A stretch of 64,000 nucleotides of DNA from a virus: the IMG/VR virus record IMGVR_UViG_3300029413_000164. One strand, given 5' to 3'. The position numbers were made by a program, and so were the translations under genes. The notes beneath the pieces are model-generated. The model was not told the DNA's origin, did not search any database, and worked only from the letters and a program-made list of their open reading frames with translations. Positions 1,003-63,308 of this stretch are shown piece by piece (position 1 is the stretch's first letter; the number at the start of each line of letters is the position of its first letter).

Positions 1003-1035
1003 GAGAAAAAATAAATCATACTTAATGTAAAGACA
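1003..1035 (+). promoter_or_regulatory. Element-type promoter
   Basis: AAAAAATAAATCATACTTAATGTAAAG upstream of the 1063 start. Confidence 0.5.
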
Positions 1036-6002: not shown

Positions 6003-6410
6003 ATGAAATTAGATACAAATAATCATTCAGTGTTCATGTTGCATTATCATCTGATTATGTGCGTAAAATATCGAAATAAGGTAATAGATGATATTATTTC
6101 TAATCGTTTAAAAGAGATATTTGAAAAGATTGCTCCTACTTATAATATTGTATTAGAAGAGTGGAATCATGATATAGATCATGTACATATTTTGTTTAGG
6201 GGACAACCAAATACAGAAATCAGCAAATTCATCAATGCATATAAATCAGCAAGTAGCAGACTCATAAAGAAAGAATTTCCTCAAATACGTAAATCTTTAT
6301 GGAAAGAAATGTTCTGGTCACAGAGTTTTTGTCTACTGACTACAAGTGGAGTTACTGTAGATATTATTAAACAGTATATAGCATCACAGGGAAAGAAAAA
6401 TGGCAAATAA
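6003..6410 (+). CDS. tnpA: IS200-type Y1 (HUH) transposase
   Basis: 135-aa ORF with an HxH motif (HVHILF) and a C-terminal Tyr region (IIKQYIASQ). Confidence 0.8.
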   Translation: MKLDTNNHSVFMLHYHLIMCVKYRNKVIDDIISNRLKEIFEKIAPTYNIVLEEWNHDIDHVHILFRGQPNTEISKFINAYKSASSRLIKKEFPQIRKSLWKEMFWSQSFCLLTTSGVTVDIIKQYIASQGKKNGK

Positions 6411-7554
6411 AGCAATTAAATATCGCATATATCCTACAACTGAACGGAGAGTTATGTTTACTAAGACCTTTGGTTGTTGCCGCAAGGTCTATAATCTTAT
6501 GCTTGCAGATAAGATTGAGGGTTATAAAGCGACTGGGAAATTCCCTACTGTAACGCCTGCTAAGTATAAGGAAGATTATCCTTATCTTAAAGAAGTAGAC
6601 AGTCTTGCGCTTGCCAATAAACAGATGGATTTACAAGCAGCGTTTCGTAATAGATTCAATAAAAAACGTAAAAAGAAAAGTGAATTTCCTAAATTCAAAT
6701 CCGCAAAACATAGCCGCAAGTCTTATACTACGAATAATCAAAACGGCACAGTGGCTATTATAAATAATAAATATATCAAGTTACCTAAAATTGGTAAAGT
6801 GAAAGCCGTTATTCATCGTATTCCTAATGATAATTGGACTGTCAAGTCTGCTACTATATCACTAGCGTCAGATGGTAAGTATTATGCTTCTGTTCTTTTT
6901 GAATTTGATGAAATAGAAAATACCTATATAGCTGATAAAACTAACGCTATCGGATTAGATTATGCGTCTAATGGCTTATACGTAGATAATAATGGCAACG
7001 TAGGTACGAACCATAAGTATTATCGTGAAAGTTATGATAAGCTTGCCAAAGAACAACGCAAACTGTCTCGTATGCAAGGCTCTAAAAAGAATGAAGATAA
7101 GTCTAATAACTATATTAAACAGCTTCATAAAGTAAACAAAATTCATAGACATATTGCTAATCAACGTTTGGACAACTTACATAAAATATCTACTGAGATA
7201 GCCAATCAGTATGATGTTGTCTGCGTAGAGACGCTTAATATGAAAGCAATAGCAAATAAAAAATTTGGTAATGGTAAAGCTACTATGGATAACGGATATG
7301 GAATGCTTTTATCTATGCTTGAATATAAGCTATCTGATAGAAATAAGTATTTCGTAAAAGTGGATAAGTGGTTTCCGTCATCACAAATTTGTCATTGTTG
7401 TGGTACACGGCATCCAGAAATGAAGGATTTAGCTAATCGCAAAATGATATGTGATTGTGGTCTTATAATGAATCGTGACCAAAACGCAGCTATCAATATT
7501 TTGAATGAAGGATTACGCCTGCTTACTGAACGCTTGCTTAGTGAAGCGGCATAA
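6400..7554 (+). CDS. tnpB: TnpB (OrfB) RuvC-like protein
   Basis: 384-aa ORF with an N-terminal YRIYPT motif and a C-terminal zinc finger CHCCG...CDCG followed by DQNAAINI. Confidence 0.8.
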   Translation: MANKAIKYRIYPTTERRVMFTKTFGCCRKVYNLMLADKIEGYKATGKFPTVTPAKYKEDYPYLKEVDSLALANKQMDLQAAFRNRFNKKRKKKSEFPKFKSAKHSRKSYTTNNQNGTVAIINNKYIKLPKIGKVKAVIHRIPNDNWTVKSATISLASDGKYYASVLFEFDEIENTYIADKTNAIGLDYASNGLYVDNNGNVGTNHKYYRESYDKLAKEQRKLSRMQGSKKNEDKSNNYIKQLHKVNKIHRHIANQRLDNLHKISTEIANQYDVVCVETLNMKAIANKKFGNGKATMDNGYGMLLSMLEYKLSDRNKYFVKVDKWFPSSQICHCCGTRHPEMKDLANRKMICDCGLIMNRDQNAAINILNEGLRLLTERLLSEAA

Positions 7555-7700
7555 TCAAAATATACAGTAGGGATGGAATAGCCCAAACTTATACGCCTGT
7601 GGACATTATGTAAGACATTGAGCCGCGTAACATCGCGACTAACGCAGTGGTGGTCGAAGCAGGAAGCTCCGACTCCTATAAGTCGGAGTAGTTCACATCA
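7540..7700 (+). ncRNA. Candidate ωRNA/right-end RNA of the IS
   Basis: Region between the 3' end of tnpB and the right-end hairpin. Locally GC-richer with stem-loops. Inferred by analogy with IS605 TnpB systems. Confidence 0.35.
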
Positions 7701-8484
7701 TGTTTTCAATGTCCTCATAATGTTGAGGTTCAGGAAAGGAAGCGAACAATTCATATCCATGATCTTCCATCCACTTTGTGTATTCAGCATATTCCTCATA
7801 TTCCTTTTTAATTTCATCAAGAGCTTCTGCTGCATGCGGATTTTTGTTATTGTCCGGATGATACATTCTGACAAGATTCTTGTAAACCTTCTTTGCTTCT
7901 TCTGATGACATGTTCTGATACATTATCGGCCTGTATTTAACGGACTTTGGAGCATCGTAATTTGCGAAAATTTCATCGCGAAGCTGCATATTGTGCTCTT
8001 TAAGCTTCTTACTGCGGTTAATCATATCAATCACGTAATCAGGTCTTGAGTATTTAACAACAGAATTTGTATAAGTGTCCTGTATCGTGAGGTTTCCAAC
8101 GACGAGTCCCTCAAGAAGACTGTATCCTATGATTACAGCGCCTATGATAAAAATAAACTTAATACCCGTAACTGCCCATAAAACACCACCGCCGAACAGT
8201 GCTATAAAGCCAAATATGTAAAGCTTCCAGAATTTCATGCGATATAGTATTTCAAGCACAGCATTTGAAAGCATAAGTGACAGCAGCAGGCGACCGTAGT
8301 TTTTCTTTAATCCTTCCGGAGTTTCAAGCCAGTCACCCATGCCTCTTTTCTTTTCGGCTTCAGTAAGTTCTCTTTTGTCATTATTAATAAGCAGTATACG
8401 GTCTATAACCCTGATAAATTTTAAGGCATCATCATTCCTTCTGCCTTGATTCTCAGCTTCTTTGTTTATGTCATTTTTGCTCAT
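7693..8484 (-). CDS. J-domain (DnaJ-like) membrane protein
   Basis: C-terminal HPD motif (YHPDNN), 2-3 internal TM segments. Minus-strand promoter motif at 8529-8590. Confidence 0.6.
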   Translation of the reverse strand: MSKNDINKEAENQGRRNDDALKFIRVIDRILLINNDKRELTEAEKKRGMGDWLETPEGLKKNYGRLLLSLMLSNAVLEILYRMKFWKLYIFGFIALFGGGVLWAVTGIKFIFIIGAVIIGYSLLEGLVVGNLTIQDTYTNSVVKYSRPDYVIDMINRSKKLKEHNMQLRDEIFANYDAPKSVKYRPIMYQNMSSEEAKKVYKNLVRMYHPDNNKNPHAAEALDEIKKEYEEYAEYTKWMEDHGYELFASFPEPQHYEDIENMM

Positions 8485-8528: not shown

Positions 8529-8590
8529 ATTTCCATATATAGTATGTCAGAATCAAAAAGCACAAACAGTTTTCCATATAAGATTTTATC
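8529..8590 (-). promoter_or_regulatory. Element-type promoter (minus strand) for the J-domain gene
   Basis: On the minus strand the upstream element CTTATATGGAAAAC is followed about 18 nt later by GACATACTATATATGG. Confidence 0.5.
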
Positions 8591-11253: not shown

Positions 11254-12915
11254 ATGGCAAAGGAAATTTTAAAAGCAACTGACCTTTTTAAAATAAAAGG
11301 CAGTTATATCATAGGCGGAACAAGGGTTGAGACTGGAGTAAATGAGTACTCCAATAACCCGCAGTGCTTCGCAATGGAGCGTCCCGCGCAGTCTGCAACG
11401 GCTGCAGCAAAAATAACAGCTGTAATAAGACTGTTTGGAAGAATGAATGAAATCTCATTTTATGAGGCTGAAAACTCGCCTCTAGTGATGATTGAAAGTC
11501 ACGGAAATTTTATACAGGCTTGTCTCAAGTCTGACAGAACGATTGGCATACGCAGCACTTTTGACTGTGTGAAAAAAGATTTGTGGGTGGCAGTTGCTGC
11601 GCTCGCAATGGCAAAAAGTGTGAGAAATCTTGTCTCACCTAGCGAGCTTGGGGGCACTTTTGCTAACCTTGTTAGAACAATGACTGGAGGTGCCACATCT
11701 TCTCCGGAAAACACAAAACTACTTTCAAATCTTTTCTGTGACATTATTTATTATTACATGATAAAGGATTCACAGATTGAGCTGGAAAGCGGAAGCCTTA
11801 CCATAGAAGAGGTAAAGACAGCATACAATACTGGGTTGTTAACAACCCACAGCATGTTTGATCTAGTGCCTGATTCAGTAAAGCTTCAGGCAGAGCCTTC
11901 TCTTCAGAAGGAAAAAACAAAGACTAAGAAGAGCAGCAATGGCAAGGAATTTTTAAAGAATGCAAAAGCTGGAAAATTTCAGATTAGTTATGACTGGTCA
12001 GATGAGCAGAAAATGCATATCCAGCCTGCGTCATTTCTTGATACTTTTGTCAGCAGCCAGCAATTTGAAAGTCTGACAAAGAAAATCAAGCACAGACTTG
12101 ATAAAGTGCTTGAAAGACAGGCAGAGGGCGTGCAGTACATGGATGTAATTGGAAACGACTACATAAATGCACTTATGGTTGGAAAACCTGGTACCGGAAA
12201 AACAACACTAGCTTACGCACTCTCAGCTGCAACAGGGCTTCCGGTTTATACAACTGCAATAAGCCACAATACAGATGAGACAGAGTTCTCTGGTATTACG
12301 ACAATTGTAGATGGCAAGCCGCAGTTCTGCAGTACAAACTTCCTTGATGCATACAAGAATGGCGGAATCATCGTTCTTGAGGAGGTAAATCTTGCAAATC
12401 CTTCTGTCCTTATGGGCGGACTCGGACAAGCAATTGAATATCCTTTCATCATTAAGGAGAACGGTTACAAGGATGTAAGAAGACATCCTCTGTGTGTCGT
12501 AATAGGCACAATGAATGTCGGAACAGCGGGCTCAAAGCCGCTTAATGCAGCTTTTGCAAATCGTTTCAGACAGACATACACCTTAAATGACCCGACAAGG
12601 GATTCTCTTATCGAAGTCCTTGAAGCGGGTACGTCACTCAGCAAGAAGGCCTGCACATGGGTTTACGATGTTTACACAAACATTATTGCCCTGTTGTCAG
12701 ACCCGGATACTGACTGCGAGTGCGACAGAAATGATGTCATCGCAGGTCTGTCACTGCGTACCTGCATGGGTACGCTTGAAAACATGGAAGAGGGTGACGA
12801 CTGTTTCGATGCTGTTGACGATACAATGATTGGCTCTATAGCCAGACAGGACCTTGCACTTGCAAGGGAAATCTCAACAACAATAAGAAACAGTGTAAGG
12901 CCTCTTAAGATTTAG
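11254..12915 (+). CDS. MoxR/CbbQ/CobS-like AAA+ ATPase with a ~320-aa N-terminal extension
   Basis: Walker A GKPGTGKTT, Walker B IIVLEE, and a C-terminal region typical of the AAA_5/MoxR class. Confidence 0.7.
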   Translation: MAKEILKATDLFKIKGSYIIGGTRVETGVNEYSNNPQCFAMERPAQSATAAAKITAVIRLFGRMNEISFYEAENSPLVMIESHGNFIQACLKSDRTIGIRSTFDCVKKDLWVAVAALAMAKSVRNLVSPSELGGTFANLVRTMTGGATSSPENTKLLSNLFCDIIYYYMIKDSQIELESGSLTIEEVKTAYNTGLLTTHSMFDLVPDSVKLQAEPSLQKEKTKTKKSSNGKEFLKNAKAGKFQISYDWSDEQKMHIQPASFLDTFVSSQQFESLTKKIKHRLDKVLERQAEGVQYMDVIGNDYINALMVGKPGTGKTTLAYALSAATGLPVYTTAISHNTDETEFSGITTIVDGKPQFCSTNFLDAYKNGGIIVLEEVNLANPSVLMGGLGQAIEYPFIIKENGYKDVRRHPLCVVIGTMNVGTAGSKPLNAAFANRFRQTYTLNDPTRDSLIEVLEAGTSLSKKACTWVYDVYTNIIALLSDPDTDCECDRNDVIAGLSLRTCMGTLENMEEGDDCFDAVDDTMIGSIARQDLALAREISTTIRNSVRPLKI

Positions 12916-12956
12916 AAAGAAAAAGCCCCGCCATAAGACGGGGCGAAGGAGGAACA

Positions 12957-14789
12957 ATGAGTGAAGAAAAAGAGAAAAAGATGCTTGAACGGGATGCTTT
13001 CATGGTCCTGCAAAAGCCTCTTAAGGTAAGCTTTCTCCATAGCGGAGACAAGCTCGGATATACAGATGGTATGAGTAAAACTGTATTTATCGCGTGGGAA
13101 CACGAATACTATAAAGGTTTTACCCATGCAGAAACGGCATACTTCCGCAAGGGAGTGTTTGCACATGAGCTGCTGCATCAGTGTTTTACTAATTTCAAGT
13201 ATGACATTAAACTGATGTACAGTCTTAAAAGCGGGGTCGAGCGCCATGTTTACAGACTCTTTTCAAATACCCTTGAAGATCCGGCAATTGAGTATTTTGC
13301 TGATTCAAGGCTTGGGGAAGGGCTTGTGGATGCCCTCAGATTTACAATCAGGGAGATTTATAAGAAAAGTCCGTCAATAGACGAGGGTGAAACAACACCA
13401 TTTACTCAGCTTATGAATGCGTTGATACAGTTTGGTGATATGGGCCTTGTAAAGGGCAGTTTTACCTATAACGAGGCAAAAGAGTATTTTAAAAAAATCG
13501 CTCCGCTGTATTACAAGGGTATCAGGACATTTAACAATAAGGAGCGTCTTGACATTGCAGTAGAGTGCATGGAAGCATCACGTCCTCTGTGGGAAAAAGA
13601 GTTCAAGAGTGTAAAAGAATTTGAGCAGAAGCTAAAAGAGCTGCTTAAAAGACTTTCAAAAGAGAATGCAACGGGAAACAGCTTAGCCAATGCTGACTGT
13701 GGACTTAATCCCGATGAGGATGACAACGAAGATGGACAGAACGATATAGATGGTTCCGGTAAAAAACGGTCAGGGCAGGATTCGAATGGCAGTGAAGCAG
13801 AAGGCAGGCGGAAAGCCGCAGCAAAAGAACTTGCAGAAGTTCTTGAAAATGATGATGAAAAGGCGGCTGATGACATTTTGAAACGTATTGAAGCTTCAAA
13901 AAAAGAGGCTGACAAAAAGGCTGATGAGGAAATTAGGCCTGACATGAAAAAAATGTCGGAGAATGCGAAGAAAGCTGACTCTGAATCAGGAAAATTGCAG
14001 GATGACTTTTCAGATTCTGAAAAAGTCTGCAAAAAAATGCAGATAAAAAATCATACTGTAAGTGCAGATCCAATGTCTGTTACTCAGTACGCGAAAGTAA
14101 AAAATGCATTGAGTTCAGATATTAATTATCTGGCCAATTCTTTAAAACGCCTTTTTGAGGAGGACACGGACGAATATGTGCCTTTCACATCAGGAAGATA
14201 CGACGTGATGAGAGGCAGTATTGGAAAAACGGCAAAGGTGTTCAACAAGAAACGCGTACCCGCAGACAGGGCTGACATGGCGGTTCTGCTTGCCGTTGAT
14301 AATTCTGGCAGCATGAACGACTTTAACAACATACAAAACGCTGTATGTGCAGCTGTTGTTATTGCAGAAGCGTGTGAAAAGATGAAAATCCCTGTTTACA
14401 TTATGGGATTTACGAGAGAGCCAAGACAGTTTGTGCCTTGGAAGCACTCAAAAGAACAGCTTTCAAGCCTCATAAAAATGCGGGCAACGGGCGGCACAGA
14501 TGATGCCCTTGCAATTAAATTTGCAAGAGAAATTATAAACCGCGTAAACAGCGAACATAAATTTGTGTTCGTATTGTCAGATGGCTATGGAAGTCCACAG
14601 GAAATGAAAGAAGAGGTAAAAAAGACCAGAAAGACAGCGGACGTATTTGCGGTCGGACTGGGAAATATAGGCACTGAATATTTTAAAAATGTCTATGGGC
14701 AGGATTTTCTTCATATGAAAGATACAAATGGGCTTGCCAAGGAACTGAGCAAAAAACTTATAAAGCTCGTGAAAAGAACGGGCAGATAG
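12957..14789 (+). CDS. Metallopeptidase-like (HExxH) plus VWA protein, CobT/DUF2201-like
   Basis: N-terminal HELLH motif, a central acidic and Lys-rich region, and a C-terminal VWA domain with a MIDAS motif (DNSGSM ... TGGTDD ... LSDG). Confidence 0.65.
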   Translation: MSEEKEKKMLERDAFMVLQKPLKVSFLHSGDKLGYTDGMSKTVFIAWEHEYYKGFTHAETAYFRKGVFAHELLHQCFTNFKYDIKLMYSLKSGVERHVYRLFSNTLEDPAIEYFADSRLGEGLVDALRFTIREIYKKSPSIDEGETTPFTQLMNALIQFGDMGLVKGSFTYNEAKEYFKKIAPLYYKGIRTFNNKERLDIAVECMEASRPLWEKEFKSVKEFEQKLKELLKRLSKENATGNSLANADCGLNPDEDDNEDGQNDIDGSGKKRSGQDSNGSEAEGRRKAAAKELAEVLENDDEKAADDILKRIEASKKEADKKADEEIRPDMKKMSENAKKADSESGKLQDDFSDSEKVCKKMQIKNHTVSADPMSVTQYAKVKNALSSDINYLANSLKRLFEEDTDEYVPFTSGRYDVMRGSIGKTAKVFNKKRVPADRADMAVLLAVDNSGSMNDFNNIQNAVCAAVVIAEACEKMKIPVYIMGFTREPRQFVPWKHSKEQLSSLIKMRATGGTDDALAIKFAREIINRVNSEHKFVFVLSDGYGSPQEMKEEVKKTRKTADVFAVGLGNIGTEYFKNVYGQDFLHMKDTNGLAKELSKKLIKLVKRTGR

Positions 14790-15226: not shown

Positions 15227-15242
15227 TAGTCTTATGATAAAA

Positions 15243-15275
15243 AATCCCGCCGGCTTATTCCGGTGGGGTTTCTTT
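15243..15275. terminator. Bidirectional terminator
   Basis: Hairpin CCCGCCGG...CCGGTGGG with an A-run before and a T-run after. Overlaps the 3' end of the minus-strand XRE gene. Confidence 0.5.
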
Positions 15276-15602
15276 TGTCTTGTGGCTGTCTAATGCATCA
15301 ATCATCTGAAGTATGATGCGCTGCGTTTCTATGTCGAGAGTTGACAGGCGCATGCGAAGCTCTGGGAGAATGCCGTCATCGCGTGGCAGACCTGCTATAT
15401 CATCAAGGGATATGTGGCATCCTTTAGCATATGTAATCAGTATATTTGCACTTGGAATATTAACACCACGTTCGACGGCACTTAAATAGTTTTTGGATAT
15501 ACCGGTTTTGGCCGAAACATCTGTCTGCGACATTCCAGATAATTCTCTGAAATATTTCATACGCTGTCCTAAATCAGTAATATCTGCAATTGGTTTGTCC
15601 AT
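15255..15602 (-). CDS. XRE-family HTH transcriptional regulator (repressor-like)
   Basis: HTH_3 pattern MSQTDVSAKTGISKNYLSAVERG. No element-type promoter upstream. Confidence 0.7.
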   Translation of the reverse strand: MDKPIADITDLGQRMKYFRELSGMSQTDVSAKTGISKNYLSAVERGVNIPSANILITYAKGCHISLDDIAGLPRDDGILPELRMRLSTLDIETQRIILQMIDALDSHKTKETPPE

Positions 15603-15824
15603 AAAATTACCTCTTTATTAATCCTAATCTGTGTTTTGTGGGGATTTTGATGTGGGGGAGTAATATTGCCAATTTTTTCCATTTACATAAATATATTAAC
15701 ATATTTTTTGGATAAAATACATAAAAAGTAAAATTTATATAAAATAAATCTTGAATATAACTGAATACAGGTATAAAATGATAAATAGTAACTGAATATT
15801 GTTACAACTAAGATGGTGATTAAT

Positions 15825-15855
15825 AATAAAAAAATCATACTTGTTTTGTAACAGA
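15825..15855 (+). promoter_or_regulatory. Element-type promoter
   Basis: AAAAAAATCATACTTGTTTTGTAAC, upstream of a 42-aa ORF (15879-16004) and the sigma-like gene. Confidence 0.5.
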
Positions 15856-15960
15856 AACAAAGGAGAATGGAGGAGAACATGACATTTAGTGAAGCTATTG
15901 CCTTTCAGAAGGCAGAGGAGAAAGTCAATTCAAATCCGCTTTTGAAGGAGGCTAAGAAAA

Positions 15961-16896
15961 ATGATCAGAACAACAGGAAAGGTGATCAAAGCAAAAGAAA
16001 ATGAGAAGTATGAATACGATCCTCAAAGAATGAAAGAGATGATCGACTTCTACAACGACGGGGCTGACGAGGAAGAAAAGAAAGAGATTATGCTTTTCTT
16101 CGTTAACTCACTCTATGGTCTTATGGTCGAGGAGTGCAATAAATTTAAAAATTCCCGTTATTCGTTTGAGGAGCTGATGTCTGAGTGTCAGACAGAAGTA
16201 ATCGCAAACATCGGAGGATATGAGCCAATCGGACCAAATGGTGGGTTTAGAAAGCCAAGTACATACTTTGGCTACATAATTAGGCATGCGGTGCAGAGCC
16301 TTTTTAACCCAGAGTCGTTAACGGGGCATTTTGCACACATCGAGAGACAGCTTAAAAAGGCGGCTGCTGAGTATGGTATTCCTTACGAAAAGGAATATAT
16401 CAGACGACTCGCAAAGATAGCCGATGTGTCGTACCAGTCGGCACTGTCTGCTTTTGTACGTTCAAACACGACACATGAGGAGTATAATGGAGAGACAGCA
16501 GAGCAGTCTGAAGATTACGGACAGCCAGAGGTGGTCGCAGCTGAAAAAGCTAAGAGAGAAGCCATAAGGGAGCTTATTGACAGGCTTCCGGTAAGAGAGA
16601 GATATGTCGTAATGCAGGTATACTTCAATGACATCTCGATTGATGAGCTCGTAATTGAAATGTCCAAAGTTACAGGAGAATCTCTGAGCAAAAAGGATGT
16701 TATAAAAATCCAGCGCTCAGCCTTTAACAAGCTCGAACCAATGCTCAGAAAACAGGGTTACGGCGGAAGATGTGGATACTTCCATCCGGTATTTGTCAGA
16801 TCAGATGAGGAGCTCGATGAGGAGATGATGGACATCGCAAACGCATTTGATGACGATGCAGGTTCTACAATCCTTATTAAGTTAAACCTCAAATAA
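15961..16896 (+). CDS. Sigma-70-family-like transcription factor
   Basis: C-terminal segment RERYVVMQVYFNDISIDELVIEMSKVTGESLSKKDVIKIQRSAFNKL resembles the sigma region-4 HTH. The N-terminal half is region-2-like (FFVNSLYGLMVEE). Strong GAAGGAGG RBS. Confidence 0.5.
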   Translation: MIRTTGKVIKAKENEKYEYDPQRMKEMIDFYNDGADEEEKKEIMLFFVNSLYGLMVEECNKFKNSRYSFEELMSECQTEVIANIGGYEPIGPNGGFRKPSTYFGYIIRHAVQSLFNPESLTGHFAHIERQLKKAAAEYGIPYEKEYIRRLAKIADVSYQSALSAFVRSNTTHEEYNGETAEQSEDYGQPEVVAAEKAKREAIRELIDRLPVRERYVVMQVYFNDISIDELVIEMSKVTGESLSKKDVIKIQRSAFNKLEPMLRKQGYGGRCGYFHPVFVRSDEELDEEMMDIANAFDDDAGSTILIKLNLK

Positions 16897-17041
16897 GAGA
16901 AAAATGTCACAAAAGAAACCGAGGCTTTACAGCCCCGGTTTTTCTTTATCTTTCTTTTTCTCTTCCTCAAACATATGCAGCATTCCAGCGTAACACATCT
17001 TCCTATCTTCGCATTCCAGGCATTCCGTGTACAAAACGATA

Positions 17042-17749
17042 CTATTTGTCAGTGGACAGTTCCGACTCACGTTTCACCATATGATAAAGAAATTCATCCC
17101 TTGCCGAATAGTCAAGAGATTTATGAAACAATTCAAGAGGGGTTTCGCAAATACTCTTACGGAATGCGTCAAGAAGATTGTGGTCTTTAATAAATTTTAA
17201 GGCATCAGGACTGGCAAAGAACTTGTAGAGTTCATACTGACTTTTGTAACTTAAGAAATTCTGAATACAGTAACCGAGGCAGAGAGCTGTATTCTCCGGC
17301 TTGTTCCAGAAGCCTTTTGAATACGAATAATCGTTTGGGTCGTTAACATATTTTCCAAGATGGTTGACACGTTCATGCTCATCAATTGCACGTTTTGCGG
17401 CAGAATATTTAGCCTCTTTTGGATAAACAAGAGCAACTGCAAAATCGTAATTCATATTTTTAGATACATGAGGACGTTTATCTGGCGGAATATGCTGGAA
17501 TGATGGTTCCAGACGCATCTGCTTTACAAATTCTGAGTCAACAAATGCTACAGCCTGATCATAATCCCAGTGACATATGTCTTTTATAGCGTATGACCAC
17601 CACAAGGCAGCCACATCATCTATTTTATCCTTTTTATCCTCTGTTTTTGGAACTGAAAACTTTTTCTTGTTTCCCAGTAATACTTTTTCATATTCGCTAA
17701 GAACACAATATACGTGGTCATCCACATAACGATCCTTTAAACTGGCCAT
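17042..17749 (-). CDS. Hypothetical protein, 235 aa
   Basis: Minus-strand ORF with its own minus-strand promoter motif at 17805-17858. Confidence 0.55.
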   Translation of the reverse strand: MASLKDRYVDDHVYCVLSEYEKVLLGNKKKFSVPKTEDKKDKIDDVAALWWSYAIKDICHWDYDQAVAFVDSEFVKQMRLEPSFQHIPPDKRPHVSKNMNYDFAVALVYPKEAKYSAAKRAIDEHERVNHLGKYVNDPNDYSYSKGFWNKPENTALCLGYCIQNFLSYKSQYELYKFFASPDALKFIKDHNLLDAFRKSICETPLELFHKSLDYSARDEFLYHMVKRESELSTDK

Positions 17750-17804: not shown

Positions 17805-17858
17805 CTACAAATAGTATGTTTTTTTTATTTTGCAATTATAGCCTTCTATATAAGTTTT
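17805..17858 (-). promoter_or_regulatory. Element-type promoter (minus strand)
   Basis: On the minus strand CTTATATAGAAGGCTAT is followed about 19 nt later by AAAACATACTATTTGTAG. Confidence 0.55.
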
Positions 17859-17915: not shown

Positions 17916-17972
17916 ATCTTATATAGAAAGCAAAAGCGCAGACAAGAAAAAATCATACTTAAAGCAGAAAAA
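17916..17972 (+). promoter_or_regulatory. Element-type bipartite promoter
   Basis: TTATATAGAAAGC, then 18 nt, then AAAATCATACTTAAAG. Confidence 0.55.
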
Positions 17973-17991
17973 AGAAAAGGTGGGAAGATAT

Positions 17992-18474
17992 GTGAAAAAG
18001 AAAATTTTATGTATCCTGCTAATGCTGTGTTTTACATTTACAGGATGCGGCGCAGAGAGAGAAGAAAGCACAGAGAATACGGATGACAATTACTGCGGAA
18101 TTGTAGTCGAGGAGTCCAGATTGTACAACATATCAGTTGATACAAATTATGGAATTTATTCAAGCGATAAAGTTTTTGATTTTCTGCATGATTTTGTTCC
18201 GGCATACTCAATATCTCAGACAGGAACGATAATTAACATCAAGTTTACAAAAGATGAAGTTGCCAAGTGGAACGAAACTGTAAGCAGTCAGCTGTTTGAC
18301 GGAATAAGAACCGACGGAATGAACATTTACGTGTCCACTGGATTTGATACACAGTTTACAGAAAAGATAGCGGATACAATTACGGTACTTAAAATAAACC
18401 AGCAGTTAAACGGTGGCGATGACGTCGTACATATATATCTGGAGGGCAAGGACCAGGCGGTAATGTCGTTTTAA
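17992..18474 (+). CDS. Lipoprotein, 160 aa
   Basis: GTG start. Signal peptide with lipobox LCFTFTGC. RBS AAGGTGG. Confidence 0.55.
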   Translation: MKKKILCILLMLCFTFTGCGAEREESTENTDDNYCGIVVEESRLYNISVDTNYGIYSSDKVFDFLHDFVPAYSISQTGTIINIKFTKDEVAKWNETVSSQLFDGIRTDGMNIYVSTGFDTQFTEKIADTITVLKINQQLNGGDDVVHIYLEGKDQAVMSF

Positions 18475-21419: not shown

Positions 21420-22439
21420 TTAATTCCAGATAGGAATAGAATAACCGATGGGAATACCAAGAGTGGCTATGAGTTTCTCGTCAGGATAAAAACAATCAAC
21501 ATTCTCGCACACATCAGGGCATTTAGCCCATTCTCCACTTGCCGCAACAAGAATGGTCAGGGATGAGAGGATTCCATAACCAAAGTTTGAGGTGCTCCCC
21601 AGTTTCGCATAATCTGACTCTTTAGCTTTGTTGGCCGGAATGGCTTTACGAAACGATGTCCGCCCACATTTCTCCCTTGCGTTGAAGATCATATCACCGA
21701 CGCGGGTGTTCGCGCGGTATGAACTTGTAAGGTAGTCATAGTCTCGGCAGACGAATTCAGCTTTTTTTCCTGTCTTGTCATATTCGTGGATATAATAGCA
21801 GCCGCAGAGGCTCTTTAAGCGTCTTACAATTTCGCCGCCCTCTGTGCCATTTGCTTTGATGCTTCCCTCAACAAGAAAATCTTCCCAGAATTTATCTTTT
21901 CTTACAAAAGTGTCGAAAAACTTCTTGTTTGCTTCCAGATATACAGACTCCGGGATAACCTCGCCAGGTTTCAGATATCCTGTAATATCTATGAAGTTTC
22001 CTGCAAATACAAGTACTGTACGCAGGCTTTCCTCGTCATATTTGTCAATGTCATCAGAAAAGACCATCTTGTATATGGCTTTTCTTGTCTGCCTGTGCAT
22101 ATAGGCAAACAGCAGGCCAAGATAAATATCCTCCCTGTAGACTCGGCGGCGCTGTACTTCAATGAGCTTTGCCACAAATTTGTAATCTTTATCATTGAGG
22201 TCTCTTGCCAGTGTTGCCTGAAATACATTGAGAAGGCCTATCATGTATGAATCGCGCTCGTCCATGAGGGCAATCAGCTTATACATCCTGTGTTCCTTAA
22301 CCTCCCATGTTTTCTTTATGTAATTCTTATAATCTTCAGGATACTCCCTGAGCCATTTGTCCGTTGTTACATTATAAAACTTTTTTCCATTGTAATCGGT
22401 TAGTTCTATGCTGAAAAATCCCATTTTCCGTTCCTCCAT
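21420..22439 (-). CDS. Hypothetical protein, 339 aa
   Basis: Minus-strand ORF. RBS GGAGGAACGG, read from the minus strand. Own promoter motif upstream. Confidence 0.55.
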   Translation of the reverse strand: MEERKMGFFSIELTDYNGKKFYNVTTDKWLREYPEDYKNYIKKTWEVKEHRMYKLIALMDERDSYMIGLLNVFQATLARDLNDKDYKFVAKLIEVQRRRVYREDIYLGLLFAYMHRQTRKAIYKMVFSDDIDKYDEESLRTVLVFAGNFIDITGYLKPGEVIPESVYLEANKKFFDTFVRKDKFWEDFLVEGSIKANGTEGGEIVRRLKSLCGCYYIHEYDKTGKKAEFVCRDYDYLTSSYRANTRVGDMIFNAREKCGRTSFRKAIPANKAKESDYAKLGSTSNFGYGILSSLTILVAASGEWAKCPDVCENVDCFYPDEKLIATLGIPIGYSIPIWN

Positions 22440-22527: not shown

Positions 22528-22590
22528 CATATATAGTATGTTTGACTCAGAACTCATCATTGTCTTTCTATATAAAATACCACCACTTAA
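22528..22590 (-). promoter_or_regulatory. Element-type bipartite promoter (minus strand)
   Basis: On the minus strand TTATATAGAAAGAC is followed about 18 nt later by AAACATACTATATATGG. Confidence 0.5.
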
Positions 22591-23389: not shown

Positions 23390-23445
23390 TCCTTATATGG
23401 AAGGCTTTTCTTTTTTGAAAGAAAAAACATACTCTTCGTAAAAGA
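23390..23445 (+). promoter_or_regulatory. Element-type bipartite promoter
   Basis: TTATATGGAAGGC, about 21 nt, then AAAAAACATACTCTTCGTAAAAG. Confidence 0.5.
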
Positions 23446-23471: not shown

Positions 23472-26400
23472 ATGATACACACACACGTTCACACGCAATC
23501 GCTGTTTGATTCAGATATGAATCACAAACTGCTTGTGAAAAAAATCAAAGAAAACGGCTGGAAAGGAATAGTTGTTACAAATCATGGAGTTGTAAGTGAC
23601 ATTTATGATTTACAGCCACTGTTTGCAGAGAATGGCCTCAAGCTTGGCTGTGGATGCGAATTTTATGTAGATGGAGGAATTTTAGGAAGACTCCATCTTA
23701 TAGGAATTGCAAAAAACAATCTTGGCTGGAAGGGACTTTCAAAGCTTGTAACAATGTCAAACACAAATGTAAAAGGAGGCTTTCCTCTTGTAACATTTGA
23801 CATGCTAGAAGAACTGTTTGGAGCAGACGGACAGTATAAAGACAGCATGTATGTAACATCTGCCTGCATGCAGGGTGTTATTCCTGCCATATTCAGACAG
23901 AATGAAACAATTGAAAAAACGGTTGAAAAACTGGTCAGAAAACAGAAAAAATTAAAGAATCCTTCAGACCGCGGATATGCTGATGCGCAGGTTAAGGTTT
24001 CGGAAATCAAAAAGCGCATAGAGCTGCTTACTGAAGAAAAGAAGAGTGCTGAAAAAATTGCAAAACAGAGTTTTGTAAAGCGTTCAAAGCAGATTGCAAA
24101 GTTGACAGGAGACATGAAAAAAGAGGCAGAGATGCTTCTTGATGAAGACAGAAGGGCAGCCGCAGAAGCAGCAGTGAAACTTGAAAAGCTGAATCCGGAA
24201 ATAAAATCCATAAAAGCAAAGCTTACGACCAAAAACAAGGCGCTCAAAAAGATTGAGGAAGAAATTGGCAGATGGCTTGAAATTGAGGATGAGGTGGCAG
24301 GTCTTAAAAAGGAACTTAAAACACCGGATGAACTCTGGGATGTAGCGGTTTCGGAAGCAGAGAAGTACAAAAATCTCTTTGGTGATATGTTCTACATAGA
24401 GATTCAGTATCACGGTATTCCTGAAGAAGTAAACTGTTACCAGAAGTCGGTTGACATTGCAAGAAAGCTTAACATCCCGCTTATCGCCTCTAACGATGCG
24501 CATATTGTTGAAAAGACTGACGATGAGAGACTGAGAAGACAGATAATGCGCTCAATACGATTTGATGAGTGGCAGGAAGAAGGAACCGGGGACAGTGAGT
24601 TATATCTTAAAACAGAAGATGAGCTTCGCGACATGCTTTCTGAGATTTATCCACAGGATGTAATTGATGAGGCAGTGGCAAATACTGACAAGCTTTTTGA
24701 TTCGCTTGATGTAACTTTTGTCAAGGAAAACCACTATCCGAAGTTTAAGGATAACACAGGCCGCACAGTCGATGAAATTTTTGACGACTTAATCAAAACC
24801 GGAATTACATGGAGATTCAACGGACATCTTGAGAGAGAGTACCAGAAAAGACTGGAATATGAAATCGGCATCATCAGAAAGATGGATGTTGTAGATTACC
24901 TTGTCGTAGTAAGAGACTTTCTTGAGTATGCCAGACTCCTTGGATATGTACCTGATAAGGAACTGCCTGATGCACCGCTTACAATAGACTCGTTAAAGCA
25001 GTTTATTAAAGACCGCGGCTATAAGAATCCGGGAATGTCAGTCGGCCCTGGAAGAGGTTCAGGAGTTGGCAGCCTTGTGTGCTACCTGCTTGGAATCACG
25101 AACCTTGATCCGCTTAAGTACGACCTCTTATTCGAGAGATTCCTTAATCCGTCGCGAGTTTCAATGCCTGACATTGATTCAGACCTTGCAAAGGGAGTCC
25201 GTGAAAAAACAATTGAGTACGTCCGCCATAAATATGGTGAGAAAGCAGTATGTCTTATCATGACAAAGGCTGTAAAGGCCCCAAAAGGTGCGGTAAAGGA
25301 TGCTTCGAGATTTTACGGACAGAAGATGTATGGCGAAAAGCTCACAGCACTTGGAGATAAATTGTCAAAGGATATTCCTTCAAGAGTCAATCTGTCATTT
25401 GATTCACCATATGATGAGAATGATGAAGGTAAGGAAAATTACCAAAGTGTATATGAAGTCCTTAGAGAAAAGTATGCAGACAACAAGGATGCGCTTGAGG
25501 TCTTAAGATGGGCAAAATGCATTGAAGGCATGTTTTACGCATATGGAGAGCATGCTGCCGGTGTTGTTATTTCTGATAATAATGATGTGTCAGATTATGT
25601 ACCGCTTAAGTACAACTCTTCGTCAAAACAGATGGACTGCCAGCTTAACATGGTTCAGGTTGAGGAGAACGGACTTCTTAAAATGGACTTTCTGGGACTT
25701 AAAACATTAAATATCGTTACAGATGCAATGAGACTGATAGAGAAGAATTGCGGAAAAATTATTGACCCGTTAAAGATAAACCTCGAAGATGAACACATCT
25801 ATAAGGAAATCTTTTCAAAGGGTCTTACAAATGCCGTGTTCCAGTTTGAGTCTGATGGCATGAAACAGATGCTTAAAAGATTCAAGCCGACATGTTTTGA
25901 GGATATTATCATTCTCGTCAGCATGTTCAGGCCGGGACCACTTCAGTACATTGACGGCGTAATAGATGTCAAGAACAAGGTCAGACCAATGACTTTTCTG
26001 TGTGAAGAGCTTAAGCCAATCTTGAGCAAAACATACGGTGCCATTGTATATCAGGAGCAGGTTATGCAGCTCGTACAGAGCCTTGCGGGATTTTCGCTTG
26101 GTGATGCCGATAATGTAAGACGTTTCATGTCAAAGAAAAAAGCTGAAAAGCTCGCTCATGAGAGGGACGCATTTATTTATGGTGACGAGGGCAGAAACAT
26201 CAAGGGATACATAAAAGTACACCTTGAAAACGTGAATGCTGAAAATATGTCACAGGCAGAAGCTGAGGCAGAGAAGAAGAAGGCTGAAAATGTTGCGAAC
26301 GAAATCTTCGACCAGATGACGGATTTTGCAAAATATGCATTCAACAAATCACATGCCGCTGCATATGCGTTTAATGCGTATATTACTGCATGGCTTAAAT

Positions 26401-28909: not shown

Positions 28910-28962
28910 TCTTATATAGAAAAGCATTTGCAGTCAGAAAATCTAACATACTGTATATAGAA
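28910..28962 (+). promoter_or_regulatory. Element-type bipartite promoter
   Basis: CTTATATAGAAAAGCAT, 17 nt, then AAAATCTAACATACTGTATATAG. Confidence 0.55.
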
Positions 28963-32636: not shown

Positions 32637-32692
32637 AACTTATATAGAAAGCCATAATAAAGGAATAAATCTATCATACTTATGGTGTAAGA
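32637..32692 (+). promoter_or_regulatory. Element-type bipartite promoter
   Basis: CTTATATAGAAAGCCAT, 17 nt, then AAATCTATCATACTTATGGTGTAAG. Confidence 0.6.
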
Positions 32693-33649: not shown

Positions 33650-33705
33650 AAAACTTATATAGAAGGCCATAAATGAAAAATATTTCTATCATACTTATGA
33701 TGTAG
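33650..33705 (+). promoter_or_regulatory. Element-type bipartite promoter (second of the tandem pair) ahead of the RNA gene cluster
   Basis: AACTTATATAGAAGGCCAT, 17 nt, then TTTCTATCATACTTATGATGTAGC. This is the closest match to the consensus. Confidence 0.6.
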
Positions 33706-38086: not shown

Positions 38087-38145
38087 GAGGCGGGCAAATA
38101 TCTGTAGACGGTGCGAAAAAGGCGGGAAAAATCCCGTCTTTTTAT
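38087..38145 (+). repeat. Duplicated gene-end plus terminator module (copy of 37316-37375)
   Basis: GGCAAATATCTGTAGA...AAAAGG(C/A)GGGA(A/G)AAATCCCGTCTTTT occurs twice. The second copy retains a vestigial ...GKYL stop. Confidence 0.55.
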
Positions 38146-38195
38146 ATGGAAGGCCATTTGCAAACATTATTTCTGACATACTCATATTAAAAGGA
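38138..38195 (+). promoter_or_regulatory. Element-type bipartite promoter
   Basis: TTTATATGGAAGGCCATTTG, 17 nt, then TTCTGACATACTCATATTAAAAGG. Confidence 0.55.
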
Positions 38196-48957: not shown

Positions 48958-49016
48958 AAATCTTATATAGAAGGCCATTCGCAAAAATGAAATCTAACAT
49001 ACTATATATGTAAAAA
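48958..49016 (+). promoter_or_regulatory. Element-type bipartite promoter
   Basis: TCTTATATAGAAGGCCATTCG, about 17 nt, then AAATCTAACATACTATATATGTAAAA. Confidence 0.6.
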
Positions 49017-58851: not shown

Positions 58852-58910
58852 CGCTTTTATATAGAAAGGCAATTTCATACATAATTTCTATCATACTCTA
58901 TATAAAGAAA
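58852..58910 (+). promoter_or_regulatory. Element-type bipartite promoter
   Basis: CTTTTATATAGAAAGGCAAT, about 17 nt, then TTTCTATCATACTCTATATAAAG. Confidence 0.55.
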
Positions 58911-59019
58911 AAGACGGCAATCAGCATAAGATACTACATTTAGGAGGCATTCTATCATATCAGTCAGAACACCACGTCTATAACACCTGCATAGGCGTGG
59001 ATGAATGGCCGTGCATTCT

Positions 59020-59070
59020 TATATGGAAACCTATAAACGGAAATATAAAAAATCATACTTATGTCAGAAA
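59020..59070 (+). promoter_or_regulatory. Element-type bipartite promoter
   Basis: CTTATATGGAAACC, about 19 nt, then AAAAAATCATACTTATGTCAG. Lies 25 bp upstream of the TnpB-remnant ATG. Confidence 0.55.
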
Positions 59071-63249: not shown

Positions 63250-63308
63250 CTATTTTCATATAGAAGGCCATATTTAAAAACAAAAACTATCATACTCTTA
63301 TTGAATAA
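63250..63308 (+). promoter_or_regulatory. Element-type bipartite promoter
   Basis: TTTTCATATAGAAGGCCATATTT, 17 nt, then AAAACTATCATACTCTTATTG. Confidence 0.6.

What the first reader, a model, noticed from the sequence alone, without database searches (positions are those of the whole stretch)
15255..16896. XRE repressor gene diverges from an element-encoded sigma-like factor gene that has its own element-type promoter
The 311-aa product of 15961-16896 ends in a segment resembling the sigma-70 region-4 helix-turn-helix: VVMQVYFNDISIDELVIEMSKVTGESLSKKDVIKIQRSAFNKL. Its N-terminal half is region-2-like.
- The gene sits opposite an XRE-type repressor that lacks the element promoter.
- This layout resembles a lysis/lysogeny or early/late switch.
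- The sigma-like protein is a strong candidate for the factor that recognises the repeated promoter motif.
Basis: partly seen in the sequence, partly recalled or inferred. Interest (0 to 1): 0.7.

Follow-up and report, generated by a model that had tools for sequence, protein, structure and literature searches.

The report
Divergent phage sigma factor beside repressor
A large human-gut phage carries one very divergent RNA-polymerase sigma factor gene next to a small repressor gene, and this sigma factor is the best candidate for reading the unusual promoter (…CATACT…) found in front of most of the phage's genes; this is a new member of a known kind of system.

Summary

The repeated motif is real and looks like a promoter. 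Its core is A-rich/TCTAW + CATACT + N6 + GTA, with an optional TTATATRGAA element exactly 25 nt upstream. It precedes about 29 of about 40 transcription units, including the sigma gene. It is absent before the XRE, integrase and IS genes.

The window belongs to a genome of at least 126 kb that has exactly one sigma gene. Relatives whose sigma is only 23-25% identical keep both the motif and the motif-preceded sigma gene. No bacterial reference genome carries the motif in many copies.

That this sigma reads the motif is the best-supported inference (about 0.6), but it is untested. XRE control of sigma is weaker. There are two candidate operators, and one sits in the spacer of a sigmaA-like promoter. 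However, four more distant relatives have no XRE gene there.

Verdict: a new member of a known kind, of moderate interest.

The parts
15242..15271 (+). Terminator-like hairpin between the upstream 142-aa gene and the 3' end of the XRE gene
   Evidence: 12-pair stem, 7 GC pairs, then a T-rich tail.
15255..15602 (-). XRE-family HTH protein, 115 aa, with no peptidase or sensor domain
   Evidence: Pfam HTH_3 E=2.1e-13. NCBIfam RstR-family E=3.5e-11, below the cut-off. PHROG 8/3 transcriptional regulator/repressor.
15603..15878 (.). AT-rich divergent control region
   Evidence: Sequence read. It holds weak sigmaA-like hexamer pairs on both strands, direct and inverted repeats, and the element promoter.
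15751..15779 (+). Candidate host-sigmaA promoter TTGAAT-17-TAAAAT pointing at the sigma gene (inferred)
   Evidence: 9 of 12 matches. The number of such sites in this region is not above chance (9 found against 5.6 +/- 1.9).
15758..15773 (.). Candidate operator O1, TAACTGAATACAGGTA, an imperfect palindrome inside the spacer of the sigmaA-like promoter
   Evidence: Relative L003 has the perfect palindrome TAACTGTATACAGTTA upstream of its sigma promoter, plus a second AACTG-N8-CAGTT site about 70 nt from CATACT, the same distance as O1.
15789..15804 (.). Candidate operator O2, TAACTGAATATTGTTA, 31 bp from O1
   Evidence: At 2 mismatches the pattern is at chance level window-wide, so support rests on its position and on pairing with O1.
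15825..15848 (+). Class A element promoter of the sigma operon: A-tract + CATACT (15836-15841) + TGTTTT + G (predicted start 15848)
   Evidence: The same motif is conserved upstream of the sigma gene in L002, L003, L007, L008 and L009.
15879..16004 (+). Conserved 41-aa upstream ORF that overlaps the sigma start by 44 nt, with the sigma ATG in the +1 frame
   Evidence: present in 5 lineages with the frame relation conserved. Its N-terminal ~26 aa are conserved with synonymous changes. No Pfam hit.
15961..16896 (+). Sigma-70-family protein, 311 aa. Domain 2 is about res 47-122, a domain-3-like helical segment about 124-168, domain 4 about 189-264, and a conserved acidic C-terminal tail 265-311
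16916..16941 (-). Terminator-like hairpin between the sigma gene and the convergent gene
17042..17749 (-). Convergent 235-aa gene of unknown function, kept next to sigma in relatives (57% identical in L002, 37% in L007)
   Evidence: No Pfam, PHROG or PDB hit.
17813..17853 (-). Class B promoter of the 235-aa gene
17919..17959 (+). Class B promoter (gene 17980-18474)
8541..8581 (-). Class B promoter (DnaJ-domain gene 7693-8484)
22535..22575 (-). Class B promoter (gene 21420-22439)
23393..23433 (+). Class B promoter (DNA polymerase III alpha-like gene 23472-27602)
28912..28952 (+). Class B promoter (RecD/exonuclease V-like helicase gene 29008-31203)
32640..32680 (+). Class B promoter
33655..33695 (+). 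Class B promoter ahead of the tRNA/tmRNA cluster
38142..38182 (+). Class B promoter (gene 38212-38511)
48963..49003 (+). Class B promoter (gene 49075-50586)
58857..58897 (+). Class B promoter
59019..59059 (+). Class B promoter
63256..63296 (+). Class B promoter (gene 63362-63859)
1007..1022 (+). Class A promoter (A-tract + CATACT). Further class A copies have CATACT starting at 3122, 8627, 11215, 18485, 20401, 20797, 22640, 27673, 31442, 33597, 41596, 43189 and 50655

Best explanation
The 311-aa protein is a highly divergent member of the sigma-70 superfamily (domains 2, 3-like and 4) encoded by a large human-gut phage of at least 126 kb. The host is probably a Lachnospiraceae such as Agathobacter.

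Proposed mechanism:
1. The protein replaces the host sigma on the host core RNA polymerase.
2. It directs the enzyme to the phage's own promoters. Their core is a -10-type element, C(-12)A(-11)TAC T(-7), followed 6 nt later by a G start, and preceded either by an A-tract (class A) or by TCTAW plus a TTATATRGAA element at about -47 to -38 (class B).
3. The sigma gene carries a class A promoter itself, so expression would be self-reinforcing once started.
4. The first molecules would come from a weak host-sigmaA-type promoter in the AT-rich spacer.
5. In this clade the divergent XRE protein, made from a host-type promoter, would bind the TAACTG-N4-CAGKTA sites over that promoter and hold the sigma gene, and thereby about 60 phage promoters, off.

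Shown: ORFs, domains, fold, motif statistics and positions, conservation in relatives.
Inferred: core binding, motif recognition, autoregulation, XRE repression.
For: Sigma identity:
- TIGR02937 E=7e-10 and PHROG 351 E=1.5e-8.
- The A1 profile of 5 close homologs finds only sigma factors in the PDB: region 2 at res 49-122 (E=0.003) and FliA region 4.
- Its 176 remote hits in 1.8 billion proteins are sigma factors: 41 of 66 tested match Sigma70_r2, 23 match r4 and 13 match r3.
- The 66-sequence profile hits SigA, RpoD, FliA and SigF at E=1e-40 to 1e-32 across regions 2-4.

Motif as promoter:
- Strong over-representation.
- It lies 26-125 nt upstream of about 29 of about 40 transcription units, often just after terminator hairpins.
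- A(-11) and T(-7) are invariant, and T(-1)G(+1)TA is conserved.

Link between sigma and motif:
- There is one sigma ORF, and no RNA polymerase family hit in those of its proteins screened, in a 126-kb composite genome with 22 class B and 24 strict class A sites.
- Syntenic relatives with sigma only 23-65% identical keep the motif, and always have it in front of sigma.
- The motif is at chance level in 185,579 reference genomes, and no genome has multiple copies.
- Canonical sigmaA promoters (TTGACT-17-TATAAT; TGnTATAAT) sit before the IS tnpA gene and in the integrase region. This shows that the host sigmaA is ordinary and that CATACT is a different specificity.
- The residue aligned with E. 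coli sigma70 Q437 is His109, invariant in the close clade. Q437H is the classical substitution that accepts C at -12 (PMC2613000).

XRE control:
- Divergent layout, and motif-less XRE and integrase genes.
- O1 lies in the spacer of the sigmaA-like promoter.
- A matching perfect palindrome is present in L003.
Against: - No direct evidence of core binding or promoter recognition.
- The single sequence is below the curated cut-offs of Pfam and NCBIfam.
- The model's fold was derived from an alignment that contains bona fide sigma factors.
- Distant relatives with the same CATACT motif have Gly, not His, at position 109, so the His-to-C(-12) match is not a covariation.
- The TTATATRGAA element lies too far upstream (-47 to -38) for a normal domain-4 contact, so class B may need another protein.
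- A bona fide class B promoter sits before pncB in an Agathobacter chromosome, where no phage sigma is known to be present.
- The XRE gene is absent at this spot in four relatives.
- The operator pattern is at chance level window-wide.
- The sigmaA-like promoters in the spacer are not above chance.
Confidence: 0.55

Rival explanations
1. A host alternative sigma factor reads the CATACT promoters, for example a sporulation-type sigma whose -10 begins with CATA. The phage sigma would then be either a captured copy of that factor or a regulator of a different, unrecognised promoter set.
For: - The motif is far better conserved than the phage sigma: the same motif goes with sigma proteins only 23-25% identical.
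- A complete class B promoter drives pncB in an Agathobacter chromosome.
- The -10 CATACT recalls B. subtilis sigmaE/K/G -10 elements (from memory, not tested).
- The best viral structural matches include phage SigF/SigG-like proteins. NCBIfam SigB/F/G gives E=5e-4.
Against: - No reference genome has more than an isolated copy of the bipartite motif.
- About 30 independent promoters for replication and virion genes could not be kept silent in a carrier state if a host factor read them.
- The pncB cassette, promoter included, is 94.5% identical to the phage copy, with sharp borders, so it looks like a transfer from the phage.
- Every relative keeps a sigma gene behind the motif.
Confidence: 0.2
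2. The XRE gene is not the regulator of sigma. It would be an independently acquired gene (an immunity or superinfection regulator, an antitoxin-like protein, or a regulator of other targets) that happens to sit in the variable spacer upstream of sigma.
For: - XRE is absent from the equivalent spacer in L002, L007, L008 and L009, where small plus-strand ORFs or a remnant occupy the space.
- The operator pattern is at chance level.
- The integrase lies 41 kb away.
Against: - Two similar half-palindromes lie 31 bp apart exactly between the genes, and one sits in a promoter spacer.
- L003 has the same half-site as a perfect palindrome upstream of its sigma promoter.
- Divergent repressor/activator pairs are the norm for such layouts (Tn916 Orf9/Porf7, PMC5812530).
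Confidence: 0.35
3. Another phage-encoded factor reads the motif, either an unrecognised RNA polymerase or an activator that retargets host sigmaA. The sigma-like protein would serve only a subset of promoters, for example class A only.
For: - Most proteins of this phage have no recognisable family, for example the 821-aa and 749-aa proteins.
- The class B upstream element sits at an activator/UP-element position.
Against: - No RNA polymerase family hit or DxDGD-type catalytic motif in the large window proteins.
- The short core with invariant A(-11) and T(-7) and start 6-7 nt downstream is the anatomy of a sigma-70-family -10 element, not of a single-subunit polymerase promoter.
Confidence: 0.1
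4. The protein has a sigma fold but is not a working initiation factor. It could be a decoy that sequesters core enzyme or an anti-sigma, or a DNA-binding regulator.
For: - It is below curated family cut-offs.
- The melting residues equivalent to W433/W434 are Tyr/Ile.
- It has an unusual conserved acidic C-terminal tail.
Against: - Both domains and their order are kept.
- The T-Y-F core of region 2.3, including the Y430 equivalent, is conserved across the family.
- Group 3 and 4 sigma factors also lack the W-W pair.
Confidence: 0.07

Closest known systems
Phage-encoded sigma-70-family factors that redirect host RNA polymerase (Bacillus phage SPO1 gp28 and gp33/34; SigF/SigG-like factors of Bacillus phages; sigma factors of large 'group 2' jumbo phages)
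   Same: A phage-borne sigma-70 superfamily protein with sigma2 and sigma4, plus a phage-specific promoter consensus repeated before many phage genes. The structural neighbours in BFVD are exactly these proteins. Large phages lacking their own polymerase typically carry sigma factors (PMC7824862; PMC7162821).
   Different: - Sequence identity is only 11-20%, and it passes no curated model.
- It has only 6 close homologs, all from gut metagenomes.
- A single sigma apparently serves nearly all transcription units, rather than one temporal class.
- It has a conserved overlapping upstream ORF and an acidic C-terminal tail.
PBSX Xre / Xpf of Bacillus subtilis
   Same: An XRE-family repressor paired with an element-encoded sigma-like factor that turns on the element's late genes (PMC8347963; details of Xre operators are from memory).
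   Different: - Xpf is a short ECF-like factor that serves only the late operon.
- Here the sigma is 311 aa with a domain-3-like segment and its motif precedes replication genes too.
- No homology to Xpf was tested or seen.
- The XRE pairing is not conserved in relatives.
Tn916 orf9 / Porf7-orf7-orf8
   Same: An HTH repressor gene (Orf9) faces a promoter for a sigma-like activator (Orf7) that then activates its own promoter (PMC5812530). That Orf7 is sigma-like is from memory.
   Different: Tn916 is a conjugative transposon, relief is by antisense RNA, and the cascade works by read-through rather than by dozens of separate promoters.
T4 gp55 late promoters (TATAAATA, -10 only)
   Different: gp55 lacks domain 4 and needs gp33 and the sliding clamp. 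This protein keeps a domain-4 HTH.
E. coli sigma70 Q437H altered-specificity mutant
   Same: His at the region 2.4 position facing base pair -12, and promoters with C instead of T at -12 (PMC2613000; alignment).
   Different: This is a natural protein. Relatives with Gly at that position use the same -10, so His is not required.

Membership tests
Sigma-70 superfamily | Domain 2 (regions 2.1-2.4: core-binding helix and -10 recognition/melting helix) | tested here: met
   - A1 profile aligns res 49-122 to region 2 of SigA/RpoS.
- TIGR02937 covers res 47-230.
- 41 of 66 family members hit Pfam Sigma70_r2.
Sigma-70 superfamily | Domain 4 helix-turn-helix (regions 4.1-4.2) | tested here: met
   - Sigma70_r4_2 at res 199-230, E=0.0044.
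- FliA region 4 aligned to res 191-258.
- 23 of 66 relatives hit Sigma70_r4.
Sigma-70 superfamily | Scores above the curated thresholds of Pfam/NCBIfam models as a single sequence | tested here: not met
   TIGR02937 scores 38.8 bits against 42.9. Sigma70_r4_2 scores 17.1 against 25.7. No Sigma70_r2 hit for the window protein itself.
Sigma-70 superfamily | Binds core RNA polymerase and confers promoter-specific initiation | not testable with these tools
   Needs biochemistry or genetics.
Group 3 sigma factors (FliA/WhiG, SigB/F/G: domains 2+3+4) | A domain 3 between domains 2 and 4 | tested here: inconclusive
   - Helices 124-168 fill the gap.
- FliA_WhiG aligned over res 141-230, E=1.3e-4.
- 13 of 66 relatives hit Sigma70_r3.
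- The window protein itself has no r3 hit.
Group 4 (ECF) sigma factors | Only domains 2 and 4 joined by a short linker, typically about 170-200 aa | tested here: not met
   311 aa with about 65 structured residues between the domains and a 47-aa C-terminal tail. ECF models score only E=1e-5 or worse and cover the C-terminal part alone.
XRE / Cro-CI HTH_3 family | HTH_3 domain above the gathering score | tested here: met
   PF01381 E=2.1e-13, 50.5 bits against 23, res 16-69.
LexA/CI-type self-cleaving repressors | C-terminal S24 peptidase domain | tested here: not met
   The protein is 115 aa with no domain beyond the HTH. Its size and best NCBIfam match resemble RstR-type repressors (E=3.5e-11, below the cut-off).
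Repressor / sigma master-switch modules (PBSX Xre-Xpf, Tn916 Orf9-Orf7 type) | Repressor gene adjacent to the sigma gene, with operators over the sigma promoter | tested here: inconclusive
   The divergent layout is met. There are two candidate operators, one in a promoter spacer, but their statistics are at chance level.
Repressor / sigma master-switch modules (PBSX Xre-Xpf, Tn916 Orf9-Orf7 type) | The pairing is conserved in related elements | tested here: not met
   There is no XRE gene next to sigma in L002, L007, L008 or L009. L003 has matching palindromes, but the contig ends before any gene.
Repressor / sigma master-switch modules (PBSX Xre-Xpf, Tn916 Orf9-Orf7 type) | The sigma gene is preceded by a promoter of the class it is proposed to read (autoactivation) | tested here: met
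   Class A motif at 15825-15841, conserved in five relatives. That sigma reads it is inferred.

The most novel reading that the evidence does not exclude
One self-activating, very divergent sigma factor is the master key of a gut phage of at least 126 kb (possibly 230-255 kb). About 60 promoters share a private code (CATACT with C at -12, and an optional element at -47 to -38) that host sigmaA cannot read. Genes travel together with these promoters between related phages and even into the Agathobacter chromosome (the pncB cassette). The conserved upstream ORF, always overlapping the sigma start in the +1 frame, would encode a partner or pro-sequence that gates sigma activity. This would give a compact orthogonal transcription system in a dominant gut Firmicute.
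Probability: 0.2. Interest if true: 0.7.

Novelty: new member of a known kind. Interest (0 to 1): 0.45.

Why it matters
- If the sigma/promoter pairing is confirmed, it gives a defined, probably orthogonal sigma-promoter pair (8-40 bp promoters, 311-aa factor) for Lachnospiraceae, a dominant gut family that is still hard to engineer.
- It would explain how a very large gut phage times or silences about 60 transcription units with a single gene.
- It also gives a simple sequence signature (TTATATRGAA-N25-CATACT) that finds this phage lineage in gut metagenomes. A slightly stricter form of it (with GCNAT added after the upstream element) returned 115 or more stretches in one scan.
- The signature links the lineage to Agathobacter.
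- In kind, however, it is a phage-encoded sigma factor, which is well known.

Tried and rejected
1. I first took the window for a circular permutation of the 83-kb record MT835474.1. This was rejected. Record 63001-83269 equals window 673-21152, and the rest of each is unique, so the composite is at least 126 kb.

2. A 92-kb IMG/VR contig is rich in the motif but has no sigma gene in the 82 kb retrieved, by HMM, Pfam screen and hhalign. It shares almost no proteins with the window. This first looked like strong evidence for a host-encoded reader. I rejected that reading once record 2.5-10.8 kb proved 96-98% identical to that contig. The contig is a fragment of a related large genome, so its lack of sigma says nothing. 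For the same reason, the absence of sigma in 115 metagenome stretches is uninformative.

3. His109 covarying with C(-12) across relatives: not supported, because Gly109 relatives have the same motif.

4. Protein-pattern scans for sigma relatives found nothing in IMG/VR, in GTDB genomes or in GenBank phages, apart from MT835474.1 itself. Alignment A3 was too divergent to scan with.

5. The scan with AAAAAAWCATACTTA was too unspecific and was wasted.

6. A search for a phage RNA polymerase among the large window proteins (DxDxD motifs, Pfam) found none.

7. A search for a second repeated motif before motif-less genes found none by eye.

8. The first AlphaFold run with 5 sequences was too poor to use (pLDDT 57).

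9. I looked for a paper to cite for the sigmaG/E/K -10 consensus and did not find one. That resemblance stays a recollection.
Full report
**1. The observation**

The ORF listing gives a 115-aa ORF at 15255-15602 on the minus strand and a 311-aa ORF at 15961-16896 on the plus strand. They are divergent and separated by 358 bp of AT-rich DNA. The small protein is a clear XRE/HTH_3 protein: PF01381 E=2.1e-13, above the gathering score. Its best NCBIfam match is the RstR repressor family at E=3.5e-11, below the cut-off.

The large protein hits only sigma models:
- TIGR02937 sigma70-ECF over residues 47-230 (E=7e-10; 38.8 bits, just under the curated 42.9).
- FliA/WhiG, SigB/F/G and many ECF models at weaker E-values.
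- Sigma70_r4_2 on residues 199-230 (E=0.0044).
- PHROG 351 'RNA polymerase sigma factor' (E=1.5e-8).

The coordinates and the description are therefore right.

**2. Is it really a sigma factor?**

The protein has only six close homologs in 5.8 billion proteins, all from metagenome assemblies. A profile of five of them (A1) finds nothing but sigma factors in the PDB. Region 2 of cyanobacterial SigA and of RpoS aligns to residues 49-122 (E=0.003), and region 4 of FliA aligns to 191-258.

An exhaustive HMMER search of 1.84 billion representatives with A1 gives 176 hits at E<1e-3, most of about 300 aa. Of 66 hits tested, 41 match Pfam Sigma70_r2, 23 match r4, 15 match r4_2 and 13 match r3. A profile of those 66 (A2) hits SigA, RpoD, FliA and SigF chains at E=4e-40 to 1e-32 over regions 2 to 4.

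One caveat applies. The model and the A2 profile were built with true sigma factors in the alignment, so they show family membership rather than independent proof. I place the protein in the sigma-70 superfamily at about 0.9. Its architecture is 2-3-4 (group-3-like) rather than ECF. It also carries a 47-residue, strongly conserved acidic C-terminal tail (…LRKQGYGGR.GY…SDEELDEEMMDIA.AFDDD…) of unknown role.

**3. The repeated motif**

CATACT preceded by A/T occurs 33 times against 6.3 expected. It comes in two forms:
- Class A: an A-tract directly upstream (aAAaAAaAaAtCATACT).
- Class B: cTTATATaGAAaGCcAT, then 19 nt ending in tctAa, then CATACT, always in exact register. There are 13 copies of TYATATRGAA-N25-CATACT against 0.02 expected.

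Downstream, a T and then GTA follow after 5-6 nt. If CATACT is read as -12 to -7, the invariant A and T fall at -11 and -7, the two bases that every sigma-70-family -10 element needs, and the conserved G falls at +1.

The motif lies 26-125 nt upstream of the start codon of about 29 of about 40 transcription units on both strands, often right after a terminator hairpin. It precedes replication genes (Pol III alpha-like, SSB, RecD-like), the tRNA/tmRNA cluster, putative virion genes and many unknowns.

It is missing before the XRE gene, the integrase (56869-58152) and the IS200/IS605 tnpA-tnpB pair. The tnpA gene and a small ORF in the integrase region instead have textbook sigmaA promoters: TTGACT-17-TATAAT, and TTGAGA-17-TATAAT with an upstream TG. 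The host's primary sigma is therefore ordinary, and CATACT is a separate specificity.

**4. The sigma gene's own promoter and its leader**

A class A copy (CATACT at 15836-15841) lies upstream of the sigma gene. Between it and the sigma start there is a 41-aa ORF (15879-16004) with its own GGAGG. It overlaps the sigma start by 44 nt, and the sigma ATG is in the +1 frame.

The same arrangement occurs in L003 (sigma 64% identical), L002 (51%), L007 and L008 (about 25%). The first 26 or so residues of the peptide are conserved through synonymous changes. It is therefore a real, conserved element: a leader or coupling ORF, or a small partner protein. I could not tell which.

**5. Relatives**

The synteny MoxR-AAA, VWA, ~150-aa gene, spacer, sigma, convergent ~250-aa gene is kept in contigs whose sigma is 23-65% identical. 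In all of them the intergenic DNA carries the same class A and class B motifs, including in front of sigma.

Two consequences follow. First, sigma and motif co-occur across a deep lineage. Second, the motif is much better conserved than the protein. The residue aligned with sigma70 Q437 is His in the close clade but Gly in the distant one. His at that position is the classical change that lets sigma70 accept C at -12 (PMC2613000). That is a pleasing fit, but it is not a covariation.

**6. A false trail, and what the element is**

A scan of IMG/VR with the class B pattern found a 92-kb contig with at least 14 copies. In the 82 kb I could retrieve there is no sigma gene by HMM, Pfam screen or hhalign, and almost no protein is shared with the window. 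A metagenome scan gave 115 gut stretches (863 kb) without a single sigma ORF. Taken at face value, this argued for a host-encoded reader.

It does not. GenBank record MT835474.1 (83 kb, human faeces, unannotated) matches window 673-21152 with its last 20 kb (99.2%). Positions 2.5-10.8 kb of the record are 96-98% identical to pieces of the 92-kb contig. The rest of the record and the rest of the window do not overlap.

The window therefore belongs to a genome of at least 126 kb, and the 92-kb contig is a fragment of a related one. In the 126-kb composite there is exactly one sigma-family ORF, alongside 22 class B and 24 strict class A sites against 0 and about 1 in shuffles. Window-lineage pieces also sit on 228-kb and 255-kb metagenome contigs, so the phage may be a jumbo phage, or integrated. 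I could not decide between these.

The element has a terminase, tail proteins, a tyrosine recombinase, tRNAs and a tmRNA. The related fragment has a Cas12a gene behind a class B promoter.

**7. Host, and the host-factor rival**

The class B pattern occurs at chance level in 185,579 species-representative genomes: 40 hits, with about 70 expected from base counts. No genome has several.

The convincing sites are all in Lachnospiraceae: two Agathobacter genomes and a Eubacterium sp. MAG. The MAG also carries a TnpB 75% identical to the window's. One site precedes pncB in an Agathobacter isolate. Promoter plus gene are 94.5% identical to the phage fragment, with sharp borders, which points to cassette transfer and to Agathobacter as host.

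A host alternative sigma reading these promoters cannot be excluded. It would explain that site and the extreme conservation of the motif. But it would leave about 60 phage promoters uncontrollable by the phage, and it would leave the universally retained, motif-preceded phage sigma without a job. I give it 0.2.

**8. The XRE part**

In the spacer there are two similar 16-bp imperfect palindromes 31 bp apart: O1 TAACTGAATACAGGTA (15758-15773) and O2 TAACTGAATATTGTTA (15789-15804). O1 lies exactly in the spacer of a sigmaA-like TTGAAT-17-TAAAAT pair. L003 has the perfect palindrome TAACTGTATACAGTTA and a second AACTG…CAGTT site at the same distance (about 70 nt) from its CATACT.

Against this:
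- The pattern is at chance level over the whole window.
- SigmaA-like hexamers in this AT-rich spacer are not above chance.
- L002, L007, L008 and L009 have no XRE gene there.

Repression of sigma by XRE is thus a reasonable, clade-specific hypothesis (about 0.45), not a conserved design. Whether it is a lysogeny switch is open. The recombinase is 41 kb away, the repressor has no cleavage domain, and no prophage copy turned up in reference genomes.

**9. Comparison and verdict**

By function this is a phage-encoded sigma factor with a private promoter set. That makes it comparable to SPO1 gp28 or gp33/34, the Bacillus-phage SigF/G-like factors, and the sigma factors of large phages that lack their own polymerase (PMC7824862, PMC7162821). 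The repressor-next-to-autoactivating-sigma layout recalls PBSX Xre/Xpf (PMC8347963) and Tn916 Orf9/Orf7 (PMC5812530).

It differs in several ways: extreme sequence divergence (no curated model passed), an apparently genome-wide rather than stage-specific promoter set, -10-only promoters with C at -12, an upstream element at -47 to -38, a conserved overlapping leader ORF, and an acidic tail.

I rate it a new member of a known kind. Interest is 0.45. Confidence is 0.55 for the full mechanism, about 0.9 for sigma-family membership and about 0.6 for 'this sigma reads CATACT'.

Noticed in passing
window 15879-16004; L002 2842-2982; L003 177-305; L007 2087-2254; L008 2023-2148: A conserved small ORF (41-55 aa) sits ahead of the sigma gene in five lineages. 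Its first ~26 residues are conserved, and the sigma ATG always lies inside it in the +1 frame (overlap 23-74 nt). It could serve translational coupling, encode a small partner protein, or mark a frameshift site.
   Followed up: partly
window 1-64000 with MT835474.1 (L338, L006, L339): The window extends GenBank record MT835474.1 rather than permuting it. The composite genome is at least 126 kb with a single sigma gene. Window-lineage pieces lie on 228-kb and 255-kb gut metagenome contigs, so this may be a jumbo phage or a prophage in a chromosome.
   Followed up: partly
window 33824-34720: A cluster of tRNA-Met, a tmRNA (tag ANNRCLAAA), tRNA-Trp, tRNA-Glu and a second tRNA-Met, placed behind a class B promoter.
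   Followed up: no
window 6003-7554: An IS200/IS605-type tnpA + tnpB pair is inserted in the phage, with a canonical TTGACT-17-TATAAT promoter. The TnpB is 75% identical to one in a Eubacterium sp. MAG contig (L168).
   Followed up: partly
window 33352-33562, 42890-43173, 54057-54340: Three genes (33055-33441, 41637-43130, 52996-54297) end in an 82-87% identical module of about 240 nt that runs on into the downstream non-coding DNA. It may be a shared C-terminal domain plus terminator that is exchanged between genes.
   Followed up: no
L020 11540-14829 (IMG/VR contig 3300045988_182914): The related genome fragment encodes a Cas12a (Cpf1) protein directly behind a class B promoter. It also encodes several BspA-type LRR proteins and NAD-salvage genes.
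   Followed up: partly
L167 4760-6040 (Agathobacter sp. LCP21S3_B2) and L012 6070-7349: A pncB (NAPRTase) gene together with its class B promoter is 94.5% identical between the phage fragment and an Agathobacter chromosome, with sharp borders. This is a promoter-plus-gene cassette shared by phage and host, and it points to Agathobacter as host.
   Followed up: partly
window 17042-17749 (-): A convergent 235-aa gene of unknown function sits next to sigma. In the distant relative L007 it is better conserved than sigma itself (37% against 25%; in L002 57% against 51%) and has its own class B promoter. It may be a functional partner of sigma.
   Followed up: partly
window 11254-14789: A MoxR-type AAA+ ATPase (AAA_5) is followed by a VWA-domain protein. 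The VWA gene, and in the window also the ATPase gene, lies upstream of sigma; the relatives' contigs reach only the VWA gene.
   Followed up: no
window about 56845-56880: An inverted repeat TTCGCATAAT…ATTATGCGAA straddles the start of the integrase gene and the start of the divergent 102-aa ORF. A strong extended -10 sigmaA promoter (TTGAGA-17-TGTTATAAT) lies about 550 bp upstream.
   Followed up: no
L009 1313-1765: One distant relative has a second, truncated sigma-like ORF (E=1.6e-20 to the family profile) immediately upstream of its full-length sigma gene.
   Followed up: no
window 8546, 22540, 28947 (CATACT positions) and many sites in L014/L016: In several promoters a second copy of the TATATRGAA element follows the CATACT box directly. 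It is a direct repeat in the window and an inverted one (TTCCATATAA) in the related fragment. This hints at a separate DNA-binding protein for that element.
   Followed up: no
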